DNA of 59,043 bases from assembly GCA_002869165.1 (NCBI GenBank), contig PKTK01000009.1:1-59043 (forward strand), read 5' to 3'. Made by a program: the position numbers and the translations under genes. This stretch comes from Candidatus Parcubacteria bacterium (GTDB taxonomy: Bacteria > Patescibacteriota > Patescibacteriia > Patescibacteriales > UBA12075). Below, in pieces: positions 35,034 to 39,724 of the stretch (the stretch's first letter is position 1; the number at the start of each line of letters is the position of its first letter). The notes beneath the pieces were generated by a model that saw nothing but the letters and a program-made list of their open reading frames with translations, was not told the origin of the DNA and searched no databases.

Positions 35034-35117
35034 TGTCATTTCGAACGAAGTGAGAAATCCCTTGGCCGTTACAACATTTATGTCTAAGGGATTTCTCCGC
35101 TTCGCTACGAAATGACA
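35034..35117. repeat. TGTCAT..ATGACA element
   Basis: tgtcatttcgaacgaagtgagaaatccctt..aagggatttctccgcttcgctacgaaatgaca. Confidence 0.85.
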
Positions 35118-35160
35118 AGTGCTTTAGAGTTTGTTATTTTAAACAATATAAAATGAAAAA

Positions 35161-35206
35161 TTTCAATGTATATACATATGTATAGACATATGTATATACA
35201 TTGAAA
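35161..35206. repeat. Perfect 21-bp inverted repeat with a 4-nt spacer
   Basis: TTTCAATGTATATACATATGT-ATAG-ACATATGTATATACATTGAAA. Confidence 0.9.
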
Positions 35207-35267
35207 GTGTTTGGAAAAATAAATAGTCAGAATTTGCCAGATGAATATTTTATTTAAAGGTGCTATA

Positions 35268-35462
35268 TTAGATTTTAACAATAGCACCAACTATGCTCGT
35301 AATTAGTATGGTAGTAATGCCAGCCATATAACGAATATTAGTACTTACATCACTTGCCATAGTAATTGTTAGAAGTATTGCCAATATCAACATCACAGGA
35401 ATTTTATATTTTGGATCATGATGAGCAACTCCATCCAAACATTTCAATATTATTCCTTTCAT
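35268..35462 (-). CDS. Small 2-TM hypothetical protein, SD-led
   Basis: ATG at 35462 preceded by AGAGGAG. Confidence 0.6.
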   Translation of the reverse strand: MKGIILKCLDGVAHHDPKYKIPVMLILAILLTITMASDVSTNIRYMAGITTILITSIVGAIVKI

Positions 35463-35598
35463 TTTTTTCTCCTCTTTTGTGTTTTGTCCCAATTTTGATT
35501 TTTTATAATATAATGTACATTTTTTTGTTTTTTTAGAATATCATTTATTAAAGATAATAGCAATAAACAAAGATTGATGTTATTTTAAATTGAATTGG

Positions 35599-35627
35599 TT
35601 GACAAATTTATAAAAACATGATATAAA
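35599..35627 (+). promoter_or_regulatory. sigma70 promoter of the accessory cassette
   Basis: TTGACA-17-TATAAA with TG extension. Confidence 0.65.
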
Positions 35628-35687
35628 ATTGGCACATAAATCTAGTTAATTTTATATTGATCATTTAAAAAAAAGGAGAGTGTAGAA

Positions 35688-35900
35688 ATGGGAAACAATG
35701 TGAAGATTGATAATTGTATTGACTGTAGCTATCACAGAGAGCTACCTGATCCTGATCCGGATGACTGGTTTTGTGATGATGATGTTAAAGTTGTTTGCAC
35801 AAAGAAAAAGCCTTCGAAAAACATTACCGTAGCATGTCGACCATACAATACAAGAAATGAATGTGATATTCCAGAGTGGTGCCCAAGATTAAATAATTAG
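35688..35900 (+). CDS. Small Cys-rich (probable metal-binding) hypothetical protein, SD-led
   Basis: CIDC, DPDPDDWFC, CRP, C.IPEWCP; AAAAGGAGAG upstream. Confidence 0.7.
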   Translation: MGNNVKIDNCIDCSYHRELPDPDPDDWFCDDDVKVVCTKKKPSKNITVACRPYNTRNECDIPEWCPRLNN

Positions 35901-35913
35901 ATAATTCAGGTAG

Positions 35914-36138
35914 TTGTATAAACAGGAGGCTGATGCGTCTGATAAAAAAATGATTGATGACAGAATGAAAGATGCTTTTATTCAGATTTCGCGAAATGGA
36001 AGATGGGGAACCTGCGTGGCTTGTCCCAGAGATTCTAATGGCCATGCCTATCCAGAGTTTTGTGAATACACTGATCGCTACGATTATCTACTAACCGTAG
36101 ATTATCTTGCAGAAGCTCACAGGAAATATCTGAAATAA
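35914..36138 (+). CDS. Small hypothetical protein (CxxC); start uncertain
   Basis: ORF in track; CVACP..FC. Confidence 0.5.
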   Translation: MYKQEADASDKKMIDDRMKDAFIQISRNGRWGTCVACPRDSNGHAYPEFCEYTDRYDYLLTVDYLAEAHRKYLK

Positions 36139-36273
36139 CTGAGTTTAGCCTCGTGTTCGATAAAAGAATACGAGGTTTTTTGTTTTGTTGACACATTGAT
36201 AATATTATATTAAAGTAAAGCATTGGTCTTTTTATAGTATAAATAAACAAAATAATATCAAAAAGGAGAAATT

Positions 36274-36453
36274 ATGAAAGATAAATTAGCTAATACTATA
36301 ATGGTTTTGATGCTAATGAGTCCATTTTTCATTGCAGGTTTTGAAAAAGTATTCCCCGAGTATACACCTTGGGATGTTAGTAACACAAGAGTCCAAATCT
36401 TGGGCGTCCAGGTAGAGCCAATGAGCACATTGATTTTGATTACTAGTGGTTAA
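36274..36453 (+). CDS. 59-aa hypothetical membrane/secreted peptide, SD-led (not in ORF track)
   Basis: AAAAAGGAG then ATG: MKDKLANTIMVLMLMSPFFIAGFEK..LILITSG*. Confidence 0.55.
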   Translation: MKDKLANTIMVLMLMSPFFIAGFEKVFPEYTPWDVSNTRVQILGVQVEPMSTLILITSG

Positions 36454-36492
36454 AAAAAACGGGGTAACGCTAATTTTAACTAAGGAGGCAAA

Positions 36493-36795
36493 ATGCTTAT
36501 TATTAATAATGCATCATTTCCGGTGATTGCGATGTGTTGGCACAAGCAATATGGCTATGGTGATCAGGAAATAATTGAGCCTAATGAAAGTGAGAATATT
36601 TCTGGTCCTTTTCTTGGTGAAATGGATGGAGGAGAATGTCGTTTGGCCATGCCAGGCGAGATTAGCTGTCATGAAGATGAGGACAATGAAAATGGCTTTC
36701 ATGTATCCAAGGGAAGTCAGCTCAATTTAGGTAATGGAGATTTTGGAGTGATCATTTGGCACTATGAAGATGAGTTGGTGTTAAAGAAGGAATAG
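36493..36795 (+). CDS. Hypothetical protein, SD-led
   Basis: TAAGGAGG five nt before ATG; followed by terminator 36816-36851. Confidence 0.7.
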   Translation: MLIINNASFPVIAMCWHKQYGYGDQEIIEPNESENISGPFLGEMDGGECRLAMPGEISCHEDEDNENGFHVSKGSQLNLGNGDFGVIIWHYEDELVLKKE

Positions 36796-36815
36796 TATAA
36801 TGTTTGTAAAATAAT

Positions 36816-36851
36816 AGGCGATGTAATAAAAAAATTACATCGCCTTTTTTA
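36816..36851 (+). terminator. Intrinsic terminator
   Basis: aggcgatgtaat/attacatcgcct stem plus T-run. Confidence 0.8.
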
Positions 36852-37111
36852 TTTAATTCAGTTAACATTTCTGTGTAACTGAAGTTTTAAATAATTTTTT
36901 TATCACAGAACCTGATAATTCGTGTTAAGTGAAGTAACCTTTTATAAAAGTCCTAGGAAGATCCTCGGACTTTTTTCTTTGGTCAAACTTTAAATTAGCA
37001 AGAACGTTTAAGGTTGTTTAATTTAACTAGAGTGATGTCTGAAGTTTTTGAAAACTCTTTTTAGAAAAAGGGGGAATTCGATTGATTCCCCCCCAAAAAA
37101 AACAATTTTAA

Positions 37112-37294
37112 TTATACGATCCTTTTTTGTTTATCTTCCATTCTCTTTTTTACTTGTTCGAACCATATTTTGTAGTCGGGGTCGTATTTAGAATACATCT
37201 CAGACAGTATTTCTACTGATGATTTTGTAGGATGTACTAGTCTATTTTTTCGTGTAAAAAATTTACGCCTTTTATTTTTATTTTCTCGGGACAT
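37112..37294 (-). CDS. Small basic hypothetical protein
   Basis: 60-aa ORF followed by a GC hairpin at about 37066-37093. Confidence 0.5.
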   Translation of the reverse strand: MSRENKNKRRKFFTRKNRLVHPTKSSVEILSEMYSKYDPDYKIWFEQVKKRMEDKQKRIV

Positions 37295-37396
37295 TATTTC
37301 AACTCATTTGTTGTTTTTTCTTGTTTTATCCTCTCTAAAAATATTACTCTCTGGTGTAGCCAGATACAACATGTTATGTGTAGTTTGAATTGGACA

Positions 37397-37837
37397 CTAT
37401 TTAGCAAGCTTTTTCTCTAAAAAATATTTATGATTTTGTTTTTTGGTAATAACGTAGCCTAACTTTTTATAAAATGACACAGCAGGATTGTTTTCCCATA
37501 CTTCAAGCGTTATTTTGCGATACCTATGCGTTTCAAAGCTTTTCATGATTTGCGAACCAAGTCCTTTTCCTTGATAGAACGGTGTTAAAAATATACGTGA
37601 TACGTATAGATTACGTTTTTGTTCTTTAACTTCGTATAAACCGATTCTACGCTTTCCTCGAAGTAGTATAACCATTTTTCCATAGTCTTTATAAAACTTT
37701 TCATCAAACTTGTTTTTATCAACTGGTTGGAATTTCTCAATCAAAGGAAATAACGTTGTTTTCATTAAACGATACACGAACGCATAGTCGTCTTTTTTAC
37801 ATTTGCGTTTTTTTATATTCATAACGTTTTGAGTCAT
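37397..37837 (-). CDS. GNAT-family N-acetyltransferase
   Basis: YQGKGLGS acetyl-CoA motif; LEVWENNPAVSFYKKLGY. Confidence 0.88.
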   Translation of the reverse strand: MTQNVMNIKKRKCKKDDYAFVYRLMKTTLFPLIEKFQPVDKNKFDEKFYKDYGKMVILLRGKRRIGLYEVKEQKRNLYVSRIFLTPFYQGKGLGSQIMKSFETHRYRKITLEVWENNPAVSFYKKLGYVITKKQNHKYFLEKKLAK

Positions 37838-38120
37838 TTTATAAAAAGTTAGGCGGATTTATAGAAGTTCAATTCAAATTTCACATAACAAGTTATATGT
37901 GAACTTGTTGATTATTTATTTAAAATTAGTTAAATATTTGTGGTTTATTTCCAATCAAGAAGTGTTTTTGTGGTTTTTATTTTGAGAATTGTTTGTTTTG
38001 CCTTTATGTTAGCATAAATATTTTTAAAAGCAAAATATGGATGTCTTATAATATTGATTAAAAAAGAGCTTTTTAAAAATTATAATTGATGATTTAAGCT
38101 ATTTTTAAATTTGTCAGAAA

Positions 38121-38149
38121 TTGACTTTTGTATTTTTTTCTTGTAAAGT
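38121..38149 (+). promoter_or_regulatory. sigma70 promoter upstream of a structured leader
   Basis: TTGACT-17-TAAAGT with TG extension. Confidence 0.6.
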
Positions 38150-38156
38150 TTATATT

Positions 38157-38320
38157 AATACTAGTGGTTGATCAAGGAGATATTTAAACTTGTAGCCACA
38201 ATTGCGCCATCGGCTTGTCTGATTTACCCATCCGTTGCTTATGCCGAGAAATCTGATGACCGTAGGCGTAAGTATTAGAGGCGAGCAGAAACGTAATGTT
38301 TCAGCAACGGATGGATTTTG
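38157..38320 (+). ncRNA. Candidate structured leader RNA / ncRNA upstream of the CHC2 gene
   Basis: Hairpin 38164-38199; perfect 12-bp stem 38228-38239/38303-38314 enclosing two sub-hairpins. Confidence 0.45.
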
Positions 38321-38346
38321 TTATTTTAAATTAAAAAGGTAGGTGT

Positions 38347-38679
38347 GTGATGAAAATAAGAAGAATTCCACATTCATATTTTGTGGAAGTAAAACAGGAG
38401 CTTGACTGGGAGGATGTTCTGCATAAGCTTGGAATAAAATTTCATTCAACCAAGAAAGGAGGAAGTATATACGAGGCAAAGTGTATTCTTCATAATGAAA
38501 ATACACCATCTCTTACTTTCAATCCATACATGTGTGCTTTTCATTGCTTTGGTTGCGGGCAAAGTGGAGATACTTTTAATTTTATTTCCTATGCCTTGAC
38601 CGGAGAGCTATATAACTATGGAAGAGTTTTTCGTTGGTTAAATAAAAATTTCAACATACCCTTACCATGGGACCGCTGA
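38347..38679 (+). CDS. Stand-alone CHC2 zinc-finger protein (DnaG primase Zn-binding-domain-like)
   Basis: CILHNENTPSLT..FHCFGCGQSGD motif; no Toprim domain follows. Confidence 0.85.
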   Translation: MMKIRRIPHSYFVEVKQELDWEDVLHKLGIKFHSTKKGGSIYEAKCILHNENTPSLTFNPYMCAFHCFGCGQSGDTFNFISYALTGELYNYGRVFRWLNKNFNIPLPWDR

Positions 38680-38888
38680 TATTTTGTAAAGATTGAGGCG
38701 GTTTTTATTTGTATAAATTTCAAAATCAAAATATAAGCAATAAATAATTATAAGAGTATTTATTTAAAAATTTTATCTAACATCTATCGAAAATGATAAA
38801 GAAGATGAATTATATAATTTATTAGCATGGAAAAATTTTATTACAAAAAAAGCAGGGCAATTAAGTACTCTGCTTTTTTGTTAATTGT

Positions 38889-39269
38889 TTAATAAATAGG
38901 CATTTCGTATTTTGAGTAGTCATTTTTATCAACAAATATTTCAAGCGTCTTACCTTCTCTATATTCATTGATTGGATCATAAGTCCAGTCAGGGCAATAG
39001 AATGTGTGTTGTTTTTGACTTTCATCAGTAAAATGTGCGATGACTGCCCAACGTTTTCCTTTTTTAGTTTGGTAAAATCCTGTTTTGCCGATTGTTGCTT
39101 TAATTTTTATTTGATTTTCTTTTTTTAGCTCAAAGAATTCACTAAGAGTTGAACTGCCTTTTTCTTTGTATTCTTTAAACCAAGGTAAGCCTTCACCTAA
39201 GTCTGTATATTCATCAGCAGTGTGAGTAGGCCCTGAGAGTGATGATAAAATTTTGTCAAAAAATCCCAT
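38889..39269 (-). CDS. Hypothetical protein (small beta-rich domain)
   Basis: 126-aa ORF with a plausible upstream promoter. Confidence 0.65.
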   Translation of the reverse strand: MGFFDKILSSLSGPTHTADEYTDLGEGLPWFKEYKEKGSSTLSEFFELKKENQIKIKATIGKTGFYQTKKGKRWAVIAHFTDESQKQHTFYCPDWTYDPINEYREGKTLEIFVDKNDYSKYEMPIY

Positions 39270-39360
39270 ATAGTTTTTTTATTAGTTAAATTAATTTTTA
39301 TCTTATCTTTTTATTTTATATTAGCATAAAATAAGCCATAAACAAAATGTTGGATTTTTG

Positions 39361-39384
39361 ATGTACGTACATATGTACGTACAT
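39361..39384. repeat. Perfect 24-bp palindrome
   Basis: ATGTACGTACATATGTACGTACAT. Confidence 0.9.
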
Positions 39385-39393
39385 TGAGTTTTA

Positions 39394-39606
39394 TCATTCA
39401 TTCAAAGGTAGGAATGATAATGAAGAATATCTATCTATGAGATTCCCTTCCCTCGCTTCGCTCGCCGGGAATGACAGGGGGGGGAGCGTTGCGCTTCGGC
39501 CGGGAATGACAAATGAAGTGGTATTACTTTTAGGAAAAATTAAGACGAGATTCCCTTCCCTCGCTTCGCTCGCCCCCGCAAGAAGACGGGACAGGCGGGA
39601 ATGACA
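39394..39606. repeat. Cluster of three GGGAATGACA half-elements, two sharing a near-identical ~28-nt core
   Basis: gagattcccttccctcgcttcgctcgcc at 39439 and 39547; gggaatgaca ends at 39476, 39511 and 39606. Confidence 0.8.
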
Positions 39607-39724
39607 GGGGGGGGGATAATAAAAATGAAAAAACAAAACAGAGTAGTATGAACTACTCTGTTTTATGTTATGTGATATGTGTTATGTGCTATGTGTTTTG
39701 TGCTATGTGATGTGTGATACGTGC

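What the first reader, a model, noticed from the sequence alone, without database searches (positions are those of the whole stretch)
38121..38679. Structured ~160-nt RNA leader coupled to a stand-alone primase zinc-finger gene
Seen: promoter, then a hairpin holding AAGGAG (38164-38199), then a perfect 12-bp stem closing a multiloop with UAUGCC/GGCGUA and GAAAC/GUUUC arms, then a CHC2-only ORF. I could not match it to a riboswitch I know. Known: the DnaG Zn-binding domain recognises single-stranded template. Inference: an RNA-protein pair, either an autoregulatory leader or an ncRNA plus a primase-modulating protein.
Basis: partly seen in the sequence, partly recalled or inferred. Interest (0 to 1): 0.55.

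Follow-up and report, generated by a model that had tools for sequence, protein, structure and literature searches.

The report
Conserved pseudoknot leader of primase-finger gene
A rare accessory gene of candidate-phyla-radiation bacteria, encoding only the zinc-finger domain of DNA primase, always follows its own about 150-nt folded RNA leader; the leader's two interleaved helices are kept by compensatory mutations, it matches no catalogued RNA family, and it probably controls the gene.

Summary
Window 38121-38679 carries a promoter-like site, a 5' hairpin, a perfect 12-bp stem and a 109-aa CHC2-only ORF.

- **Protein:** it is a complete DnaG zinc-binding domain. It is an extra copy, because every genome checked also has a DnaG with its own finger.
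- **Family:** it is rare and patchy in Patescibacteria: 2/316 genomes in the window's order and 9/301 in another order. Gene neighbours differ between genomes.
- **Leader:** all 15 loci recovered have a structured leader with the same layout: promoter, helix A 5' strand, stem S 5' strand (in A's loop), helix A 3' strand, linker, small hairpin, stem S 3' strand, a 19-44-nt A/U-rich spacer, SD, start.
- **Covariation:** A and S each show compensatory changes in three independently aligned subfamilies (5-8 doubly changed pairs; slid controls mostly 0-1).
the 12-bp stem is real, but GGCGUA more likely pairs with the 5' UGCGCC in a 20-bp helix. The fold is then a pseudoknot or a switch, not a simple multiloop.
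- **Novelty:** no Rfam family matches any leader.

My best reading (about 0.45) is a cis-acting leader that the zinc-finger protein itself binds, laid out like the T4 gene 32 operator. A riboswitch or an RNA partner of the protein is not excluded. Binding and regulation are untested.

The parts
38121..38149 (+). sigma-70-like promoter (TTGACT, 17 nt, TAAAGT)
   Evidence: Found by the consensus scan. A comparable TTGAC(A/T)-type site with a 16-18-nt spacer lies upstream of 14 of the 15 family leaders (none in L221), usually 29-91 nt before stem S and at most 170 nt. It is a consensus match only; no transcript data exist.
38164..38199 (+). 5' hairpin 1 (base GUGG.../...CCAC)
   Evidence: Present in the MFE fold. 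The base of the hairpin is kept in L014 and L015, with a U-A to C-G change and an insertion of variable length. It is specific to the window's subfamily. The AAGGAG in its loop is not conserved.
38203..38225 (+). helix A, 5' strand
   Evidence: RNAalifold consensus. It forms 20 pairs with 38249-38270, and 3 of these changed on both sides in L015; 96.6% of cells are paired.
38228..38239 (+). stem S, 5' strand (lies in the loop of helix A)
   Evidence: Perfect 12 bp with 38303-38314. Two pairs changed on both sides within the subfamily. An equivalent 8-12-bp stem is present in all 15 leaders.
38240..38245 (+). conserved single-stranded UAUGCC after S 5'
Evidence: (U)AUGCC directly follows the S 5' strand in 8 of the 15 leaders, across three sequence-unrelated subfamilies (window, L014, L015, L208, L213, L214, L215; L219). 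Its role is unknown.
38249..38270 (+). helix A, 3' strand
   Evidence: Invariant G-U and U-G pairs make the helix specific to the sense strand.
38288..38302 (+). small hairpin (arm 2) just before S 3'
   Evidence: GAAAC/GUUUC in the window and in L014, absent in L015. An equivalent hairpin abuts the S 3' strand in the other subfamilies and covaries there.
38303..38314 (+). stem S, 3' strand
   Evidence: Across the 15 leaders its 3' end lies 19-44 nt before the start codon.
38315..38349 (+). A/U-rich spacer with U-run, UUAAA words and Shine-Dalgarno (AAAGGUAGGUG, 38335-38345)
   Evidence: 35 nt and 77% A+U in the window; 19-44 nt and 61-85% A+U across the family. A GUUCUUU-like word follows S in most leaders.
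38350..38679 (+). stand-alone CHC2 zinc-binding-domain gene (109 aa; alternative GTG start at 38347)
   Evidence: PF01807, E 9e-15. The AlphaFold model has mean pLDDT 89.9. The best fold match is 1d0q, the DnaG zinc-binding domain, with TM 0.71-0.75 over 102 columns. The family shares a conserved C-terminal RW(L/F)KK.F.IPLPW motif.
38673..38706 (+). terminator-like stem (CCGCU...GGCGG) plus U5 overlapping the stop codon
   Evidence: Read from the sequence. The same arrangement, with U7, follows the L014 gene.

Best explanation
The 38150-38349 segment is the 5' leader of the mRNA for a stand-alone primase zinc-binding-domain (ZBD) protein, and it acts in cis.

The leader has two long helices.
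- Helix A has about 20 bp.
- Stem S has 12 bp. Its 5' strand sits in the loop of A, directly next to A's 5' strand.

Together they give an H-type pseudoknot topology, or two alternating conformers. A small hairpin abuts the S 3' strand. After S comes an unstructured A/U-rich spacer that holds the ribosome-binding site.

I propose autogenous control. The ZBD protein is built to recognise single-stranded nucleic acid in a sequence-specific way. It would bind the structured domain of its own leader. The conserved single-stranded UAUGCC at the A/S junction is the obvious candidate site. Binding would lower expression in one of two ways: by occluding the adjacent spacer and SD, as T4 gp32 does on its own mRNA, or by stabilising S so that S plus the U-run acts as an attenuator.

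What is shown and what is inferred:
- Shown: the structure, its conservation and covariation, its exclusive linkage to this gene family, and the fold of the protein.
- Inferred: transcription from the promoter-like site, protein binding, and the direction and level (translation or termination) of control.
For: 1. **Linkage.** All 15 loci of the family carry the architecture. They are the window, L014, L015, L207, L208, L213-L221 and L052, and they include a 361-aa fusion form and a pseudogene. Each genome searched has one copy, next to the gene.
2. **Constant geometry.** The leader is always on the same strand. Stem S ends 19-44 nt before the start codon. Helix A abuts the S 5' strand with a gap of 0-3 nt. 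A free-standing sRNA gene would not need this.
3. **Covariation in three independently aligned subfamilies.** In every subfamily both A and S are supported.
   - A6: 95% of cells paired, 6 pairs changed on both sides, against 0-1 in slid controls.
   - A9: 96%, 8 pairs, against 0-1.
   - A8: 99%, 5 pairs, against 0-1.
4. **Strand specificity.** Conserved G-U pairs make the fold specific to the sense strand, so it acts at the RNA level.
5. **Controls.** The S+A detector fires on 15/15 leaders, 1/37 other upstream regions of the window and 9/600 shuffles. A different CHC2-like gene in G1080 has no structured leader (z +0.58).
6. **RNA diverges with the protein.** Between subfamilies the RNA sequence is almost wholly different and only short words survive. 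The covariance model of one subfamily finds none of the others. This is the pattern of protein-specific leaders rather than of metabolite aptamers.
7. **The protein is a full DnaG ZBD**, a module known to read template sequence and to act in trans (PMC2978363).
8. **Precedent.** A pseudoknot followed by an unstructured A/U-rich stretch with UUAAA words and the RBS is the layout of the T4 gene 32 autogenous operator (PMC535899).
Against: - There are no experimental or transcript data, so the TSS and the 3' end of the leader RNA are unknown.
- The ZBD is known as a ssDNA reader. RNA binding by it is an assumption.
- No consistent anti-SD pairing was found. Only L207 and L220 have a significant one, so the way the SD would be shut off is not visible in the sequence.
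- The U-run after S is weaker than the genes' own terminators, and it is missing in L220.
- Each alignment has only 3-4 sequences, and related sequences inflate shuffle statistics.
- Whether A and S form together or alternately cannot be decided from sequence.
Confidence: 0.45

Rival explanations
1. The leader is a riboswitch. It would be an aptamer for a metabolite or ion, for example a nucleotide alarmone or Zn2+. Ligand binding would stabilise the A/S pseudoknot and so set termination at the U-run or access to the SD.
For: - The architecture is a two-part domain joined by a variable linker. A pseudoknot strand directly follows a 3' hairpin, and an expression-platform-like U-run and SD come next. 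This resembles pseudoknotted riboswitches such as ZTP/pfl (from my memory of that family).
- Short words survive across subfamilies: AUGCC, and a G-rich GAGGG-like word before arm 2.
- In subfamilies i and ii, AUGCC can compete with the 5' strand of helix A for the same 3' strand, which suggests a switch.
Against: - It is found only before one protein family and nowhere else in the three genomes searched. Riboswitch classes usually serve several gene families tied to their ligand.
- Almost no nucleotides are conserved across subfamilies, and the helices are long and perfect.
- No Rfam riboswitch model scores, even at E 1-10.
- Nothing about a primase finger suggests an obvious ligand.
Confidence: 0.2
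2. The RNA is a product in its own right. It would end at stem S plus the U-run and form a complex with the ZBD protein. It could act as an antidote or decoy that neutralises a primase-interfering protein, in the manner of a type III toxin-antitoxin pair. Or it could be a guide or scaffold that directs the finger.
For: - Gene order is promoter, pseudoknotted RNA, U-run, then protein gene, as in type III toxin-antitoxin loci (from memory).
- The module is self-contained, with its own promoter and terminator. It is rare and patchy, and its neighbours are not conserved, as for accessory or selfish cassettes.
- An extra ZBD could plausibly disturb the trans ZBD-RPD crosstalk of DnaG (PMC2978363).
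- The pseudogene locus L219 keeps an intact leader.
Against: - The RNA has no tandem repeats, which are a defining feature of type III antitoxins.
- The protein is not a nuclease.
- PADLOC matches only the CHC2 domain of RT-fusion proteins.
- The U-run is weak, and the spacing to the start codon is constrained, which points to cis action.
- L219 may simply be a recent decay or an assembly error.
Confidence: 0.17
3. The leader is a passive element with no dedicated sensor. It could set mRNA stability or processing, since long helices are RNase III-type targets. It could set a fixed low level of read-through. Or it could respond to temperature or to the pace of transcription and translation.
For: - It has long, nearly perfect helices of about 20 bp and few conserved unpaired bases.
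- No consistent anti-SD pairing was found.
Against: A passive stabiliser would not need the conserved interleaved topology, the fixed junction geometry, and the AUGCC word across otherwise unrelated sequences.
Confidence: 0.13
4. The structure works at the DNA level, for example as a single-strand initiation site or as the recombination site of a mobile cassette, and is recognised by the finger protein.
For: - Primases recognise hairpinned ssDNA origins (G4-type origins and ssi sites; from memory, and PMC8567376 as listed).
- The module is patchy in its distribution.
Against: - Conserved G-U pairs and G-C/G-U/A-U exchanges make the fold specific to the sense strand and fit RNA best.
- The element always lies between a promoter-like site and the SD of the gene.
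- No flanking repeats or integrase travel with it.
- In several genomes it sits among housekeeping genes.
Confidence: 0.04

Closest known systems
Translational operator of bacteriophage T4 gene 32 (autogenous control by the ssDNA-binding protein gp32)
   Same: - A replication protein that binds single-stranded nucleic acid.
- A 5' leader with an RNA pseudoknot, followed by a less structured A/U-rich stretch of about 40 nt with UUAAA/UAAA words that contains the RBS (PMC535899).
- Here a pseudoknot-type domain is followed by a 19-44-nt spacer of 61-85% A+U, with UUAAA-like words and the SD.
   Different: - The T4 pseudoknot is about 28 nt. Here the structured domain is about 110-150 nt, with helices of about 20 bp and 8-12 bp plus an extra hairpin.
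- The protein is a zinc ribbon, not an OB-fold SSB, and cooperative binding is not known for it.
- There is no sequence relation.
- Binding is untested here.
Ribosomal-protein and other protein-specific autoregulatory mRNA leaders (e.g. the S15 and L20 pseudoknot leaders)
   Same: - One RNA motif is tied to one protein gene, directly upstream.
- It is maintained by covariation.
- Its sequence drifts with the lineage while the fold stays the same.
   Different: - Those proteins are natural RNA binders, and their leaders mimic rRNA sites. No natural RNA target is known for a primase finger.
- No Rfam leader family matches. The only weak hits (L20_leader and ylbH, E 1-6) lie on the terminator at 38838-38900, not on this leader.
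Pseudoknotted riboswitches with two sub-domains (ZTP/pfl type; also preQ1-II, SAM-II)
   Same: - Helices, then a variable linker, then a 3' hairpin whose 3' flank pairs back into the first sub-domain.
- An expression platform follows directly.
   Different: - The pseudoknot helix here is 8-12 bp long and sits in a terminal loop.
- No conserved ligand-pocket nucleotides are seen across subfamilies.
- Only one gene family is served.
- No Rfam model hits.
DnaG primase zinc-binding domain (PF01807; PDB 1d0q, 2au3) and stand-alone CHC2 proteins of phages
   Same: - The C-x2-H-x17-C-x2-C ligands are present.
- The HMM match is above the cut-off.
- The fold matches over the whole 102-residue domain.
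- Short stand-alone CHC2 proteins of 91-110 aa are common in phage-derived clusters.
   Different: - There is no RNA-polymerase/Toprim domain and no helicase-binding domain.
- The family has its own C-terminal RW(L/F)KK.F.IPLPW motif.
- Phage records hold only distant relatives, at most 34% identity over the full length.
- It is an extra copy beside an ordinary dnaG.
Type III toxin-antitoxin loci (ToxIN type)
   Same: The gene order is the same: promoter, pseudoknot-forming RNA, terminator-like U-run, then protein gene.
   Different: - There are no tandem RNA repeats.
- The protein is not an endoribonuclease.
- No defence-system model matches beyond the shared CHC2 domain.

Membership tests
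PF01807 CHC2 zinc finger / DnaG zinc-binding domain | HMM match above Pfam's gathering score | tested here: met
   54.7 bits against a cut-off of 24.9, E 9.1e-15, covering residues 13-82.
PF01807 CHC2 zinc finger / DnaG zinc-binding domain | Four zinc ligands, Cys-His-Cys-Cys | tested here: met
   C45, H48, C66 and C69 are invariant in all 28 aligned family members.
PF01807 CHC2 zinc finger / DnaG zinc-binding domain | Fold of the solved domain | tested here: met
   The model has pLDDT 89.9. Foldseek matches 1d0q_A at E 8.7e-7 with TM 0.71/0.75 and rmsd 2.6 over 102 columns; 2au3 is second.
DnaG primase (TIGR01391 equivalog) | Zinc finger joined to the RNA-polymerase core and Toprim domain; score above the curated cut-off | tested here: not met
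   52.5 bits against a cut-off of 283.6, and only positions 2-94 of 414 are matched. The ORF ends at 109 aa. The true dnaG lies elsewhere in the genome.
Any Rfam 15 RNA family | Covariance-model score at or above the family's gathering score | tested here: not met
   No match on 38100-38350 at gathering thresholds or up to E 10. No match on the leaders of 11 other loci at E up to 1.
Autogenous mRNA operator of the T4 gene 32 type | Pseudoknot 5' of an unstructured A/U-rich stretch that holds the RBS | tested here: met
   The interleaved helices A and S are supported by covariation. The spacer is 19-44 nt and 61-85% A+U, and it ends in the SD.
Autogenous mRNA operator of the T4 gene 32 type | The encoded protein binds the operator and represses its own synthesis | not testable with these tools
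   This needs binding and reporter assays.
Riboswitch | Conserved ligand-binding core shared by all representatives | tested here: inconclusive
   Only short words (AUGCC, a G-rich word, GUUCUUU) recur across subfamilies. The model of one subfamily does not detect the others. There are too few sequences for a firm answer.
Riboswitch | Control of genes functionally linked to a ligand, usually several gene families | tested here: not met
   It is found only before this CHC2 family, in a single copy in each of the three genomes searched for the RNA.
Intrinsic (Rho-independent) terminator / attenuator | G+C-rich stem directly followed by a U-run | tested here: inconclusive
   S is a stem of 8-12 bp (duplex energy -11 to -22 kcal/mol), followed within 1-3 nt by a U-rich word in 14 of 15 leaders but not in L220. 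The stem spans 74-135 nt rather than closing a short loop, so the terminator scan cannot call it.
Type III toxin-antitoxin system | Antitoxin RNA made of tandem direct repeats, processed by an endoribonuclease toxin | tested here: not met
   No tandem repeats in 37900-38750. The protein is a zinc ribbon and not a nuclease.

The most novel reading that the evidence does not exclude
The leader is not just a brake on its own gene. Together, the RNA and the stand-alone primase finger would form a two-part accessory system. In one version the RNA is a dedicated partner, a decoy or antidote, of a protein that re-programmes or blocks the host primase in trans. That would be a new RNA-protein module acting on DNA replication in ultra-small bacteria. 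In the other version the RNA is a new riboswitch class that ties an accessory primase regulator to an unknown signal.
Probability: 0.25. Interest if true: 0.8.

Novelty: new member of a known kind. Interest (0 to 1): 0.58.

Why it matters
Structured RNAs of the candidate phyla radiation are almost uncharted. This one is well defined: two covarying helices in an interleaved arrangement, and it matches no Rfam family in 12 of the 15 loci scanned.

It is bound to a protein that is interesting in its own right. That protein is an extra, free-standing copy of the primase domain that chooses where primers start, and that domain is known to work in trans on other primase molecules.

If the protein binds the leader, this would be the first case I know of (from my own knowledge; no targeted literature check was made) of a primase finger recognising an RNA. 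It would also be a new example of a replication protein that regulates itself through an mRNA mimic of its substrate. If the RNA senses a ligand or neutralises the protein, it would open a route to how these minimal cells tune or defend DNA replication.

In any case the motif is ready for Rfam-style curation and for simple binding and probing experiments.

Tried and rejected
**Searches that found nothing**
- Rfam at gathering and permissive thresholds, on the window and on 11 other loci.
- Covariance model R1 (window subfamily) over 164 metagenome and viral CHC2 loci and over L207/L208. It found only its own three training sequences, because the subfamilies share the fold but not the sequence.
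- blastn of the leader in the own genome and in 60 relatives.

**Searches that were swamped or unavailable**
- The scans of metagenome contigs and viral contigs with the protein alignment were swamped by the generic C(F/Y)GCGxxGD primase pattern. Only one true family member came back, L052.
The contigs of P0002, P0004 and about 25 further family representatives could therefore not be fetched.

**Readings considered and dropped**
- Viral origin. One pattern hit (L222) lies inside a coding region of a high-GC phage and scores 9 bits with R1, so it is chance. Phage records hold only distant relatives.
- Hammerhead-like CUGAUGA in the window. It is not conserved (UUAAAUGA in L015) and has no Rfam hit.
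- A leader peptide starting at the conserved AUGCC. The ORF length varies from 2 to 33 codons, there is no SD before it, and indels are not multiples of three.
- Long-range SD sequestration as a general mechanism. It is significant only in L207 and L220.
- The idea that the stand-alone finger replaces a missing finger in DnaG. Every genome checked has a DnaG with its own finger.
- An integron attC site or other mobile-element end. No flanking repeats or integrase travel with the module, and the structure is at the RNA level.

**Unpublished genome**
No claim in this report rests on the unpublished genome G214. It appeared only as an ordinary DnaG hit.
Full report
**1. The observation**

- A sigma-70-like site, TTGACT-17-TAAAGT, lies at 38121-38149.
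- A hairpin lies at 38164-38199.
- A perfect 12-bp stem joins 38228-38239 to 38303-38314.
- UAUGCC/GGCGUA and GAAAC/GUUUC are complementary pairs of words.
- An ORF of 109 aa runs from ATG 38350 (a GTG lies at 38347) to 38679.

The ORF's only Pfam match is the CHC2 zinc finger PF01807 (E 9e-15). Rfam has nothing on the leader at curated thresholds or up to E 10. On its own, the fold of the leader is only mildly better than shuffles (z -2.29). So the case rests on comparison with other genomes.

**2. The protein**

The window lies in a 1.43-Mb, 15-contig genome of the Patescibacteria type.
- The four zinc ligands (C45, H48, C66, C69) are invariant in the family.
- An AlphaFold model built from 28 relatives is confident, with mean pLDDT 89.9.
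- Its best structural match is the isolated zinc-binding domain (ZBD) of Bacillus DnaG, 1d0q, at TM 0.71-0.75 over 102 columns. Aquifex primase 2au3 is next. Profile search of PDB sequences agrees.
- The protein scores far below the DnaG equivalog cut-off and has no Toprim or helicase-binding part.

A profile search of 1.8 billion representatives found about 30 clusters of stand-alone proteins of 100-130 aa. They share a C-terminal RW(L/F)KK.F.IPLPW motif. The finger is an extra copy. The window's genome and ten other genomes that carry it each also have a dnaG with its own ZBD.

**3. Distribution**

The family is rare and patchy.

| Genomes searched | With the family |
|---|---|
| Own order | 2 of 316 |
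| Sample of the own class | 2 of 401 |
| Phylum-wide sample | 1 of 401 (the window's genome only) |
| Order holding L014 and L015 | 9 of 301 |
| Sample of that order's class | 3 of 401 |

Neighbouring genes differ from genome to genome.
- Window: a GNAT gene and unknown small genes.
- L015: NUDIX and an ELP3-like gene.
- L207: a DHH-type gene and valS.
- L208: a Mur ligase and clpB.
- L217: a Mur ligase and trmD.

Each copy has its own promoter-like site (14 of 15 leaders). The window and L014 copies also have a terminator-like end. It is therefore a self-contained cassette.

**4. The leader is conserved with the gene**

L014 (Moraniibacteriota) and L015 (Parcubacteria) encode proteins 50-55% identical to the window's. 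Both have a clearly alignable leader, 73-82% column identity, with indels that are not multiples of three.

More distant family members have leaders that cannot be aligned to the window by sequence. These are L207, L208, L213-L218, L220, L221, the metagenome locus L052, and the decayed copy L219. Model R1 does not find them. Yet each shows the same order of elements:
1. a promoter-like site;
2. the 5' strand of a long helix A;
3. after 0-3 nt, the 5' strand of a stem S;
4. a short joint, often (U)AUGCC;
5. the 3' strand of A;
6. a linker, often with a G-rich word;
7. a small hairpin;
8. the 3' strand of S;
9. an A/U-rich spacer, often starting with GUUCUUU;
10. the SD and the start codon.

A script that knows none of the sequences recovers the architecture in all 15 leaders.
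- S is 8-12 bp and ends 19-44 nt before the start codon.
- A forms 11-24 pairs between the 27 nt upstream of the S 5' strand and the 36 nt downstream of it.

The same script fires on 1 of 37 other upstream regions of the window and on 9 of 600 shuffles. At a stricter cut it fires on 0 of 37 and 0 of 600, while 13 of 15 real leaders pass. A different CHC2-like gene in the genome of L015 has an unstructured upstream region (z +0.58).

**5. Covariation**

I aligned three subfamilies separately and counted pairs for the interleaved structure.

| Alignment | Members | Cells paired | Pairs changed on both sides | Slid controls |
|---|---|---|---|---|
| A6 | window, L014, L015 | 95.1% | 6 (3 in A, 2 in S, 1 in the small hairpin) | 0-1 |
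| A9 | L208, L219, L213, L214 | 96.4% | 8 | 0-1 |
| A8 | L216, L218, L217 | 98.6% | 5 | 0-1 |

The three-sequence version of the second subfamily gave 8 pairs, against 0-4 in slid controls.

The alignments are small and the sequences are related, so the shuffle counts overstate significance. What carries the argument is agreement across three sets that share no sequence. G-U pairs that never vary, and G-C/G-U/A-U exchanges, show that the fold belongs to the sense strand and hence to RNA.

**6.

RNAalifold did not return the multiloop. It returned a 20-bp helix between 38203-38225 and 38249-38270. In that helix GGCGUA pairs with the 5' UGCGCC.

It has no covariation, and it loses a pair in L015. 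It remains possible as an alternative conformer. In subfamilies i and ii, AUGCC can compete with the 5' strand of A for the same partner, but this does not hold in the others.

A and S interleave in the order A5'-S5'-A3'-S3'. This is an H-type pseudoknot topology, and the loops are long enough to allow both helices at once. That last point is my own geometric estimate and has not been tested.

**7. What it does**

Four facts point to cis-control that is specific to the protein.
- The leader is linked to one gene family only. It is single-copy in each of the three genomes searched.
- Its strand is fixed and its spacing to the start codon is constrained.
- It persists before a 361-aa fusion form (L216, L218).
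- The RNA sequence co-diverges with the protein.

These facts argue against a metabolite sensor and against an independent sRNA.

The layout, a pseudoknot followed by an unstructured A/U-rich stretch with UUAAA words and the RBS, is that of the T4 gene 32 operator. There the pseudoknot nucleates binding of a single-strand-binding replication protein, which then covers the RBS (PMC535899).

The ZBD is the part of primase that reads template trinucleotides, and it can act in trans on another primase molecule (PMC2978363). So both a nucleic-acid-reading activity and a reason to keep the dose of an extra finger low are plausible.

I therefore favour autogenous repression, at about 0.45 confidence. 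I could not find a general anti-SD. The U-run after S is weaker than the genes' own terminators. So whether control acts on translation or on termination is open.

The rivals are:
- a riboswitch (0.2);
- an RNA partner or antidote of the protein (0.17);
- a passive stability or processing element (0.13);
- a DNA-level site (0.04).

**8. Novelty**

Stand-alone CHC2 proteins are known, above all in phages. Protein-specific structured leaders are a known kind of regulator.

What is new:
- this RNA motif itself, which is absent from Rfam 15 and was not met in the paper searches made;
- its interleaved two-helix architecture;
- its strict coupling to a primase-finger paralogue in the candidate phyla radiation.

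I file it as a new member of a known kind. There is about a one-in-four chance that it is something more unusual.

**9. Limits**

Only 15 of perhaps several dozen family loci could be read.
- No transcript or biochemical data were available.

Noticed in passing
L009:1489-3270 (G000 contig C4, outside the window): The genome's own dnaG is interrupted by an in-frame TAA (L009 2521-2523) just after the Toprim domain. The helicase-binding part (DnaB_bind) continues in the same frame. G1261, another genome with the module, has dnaG frameshifted at the same domain boundary (L225). Other module-bearing genomes have intact DnaG of 598-632 aa. This could be a natural split, recoding, or an assembly error.
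   Followed up: partly
L216:1456-2541 and L218:1456-2544: In two genomes the finger is fused to a C-terminal region of about 240 aa with no Pfam match. That region carries an RHG...R..G motif, which I recall (untested) as typical of histidine phosphatases. The structured leader is kept before the fusion.
   Followed up: no
L219 (G1199), minus strand, about 1400-1985: This is a decayed family member. The CHC2 reading frame is broken between the His and the second Cys pair, yet the leader upstream is intact and still fully paired.
   Followed up: partly
window 35034-39606: The module sits in a stretch of low coding density with small unrelated ORFs, several of them Cys-rich, and repeated elements at 39394-39640, just before topA. 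I did not test the repeats.
   Followed up: no
L220:1340-1500: This leader carries an insertion with CCUCCUUUUU. That word can pair either with a nearby AAGGAGGGG or with the true SD, GAAAAGGAGG (10 bp, p about 0.01). This is a three-part SD switch that the other leaders lack.
   Followed up: partly
window 38673-38706 and L014:3320-3375: The 3' end of the gene is conserved at the DNA level (AAGATTGA[G/A]GCGG plus a T-run). A terminator-like stem uses the last sense codon (CGC) and the first base of the stop codon.
   Followed up: no
L208, L216, L217, L218: A Mur-ligase gene lies next to the module in four loci from two different classes. It is divergent in L216-L218 and convergent in L208. This is the only recurring neighbour seen.
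   Followed up: no
L223:453-839 (G1080 contig C7): This is a third, degenerate CHC2-like stand-alone protein (128 aa) in the genome of L015. It lacks the IPLPW tail and has no structured leader.
   Followed up: partly
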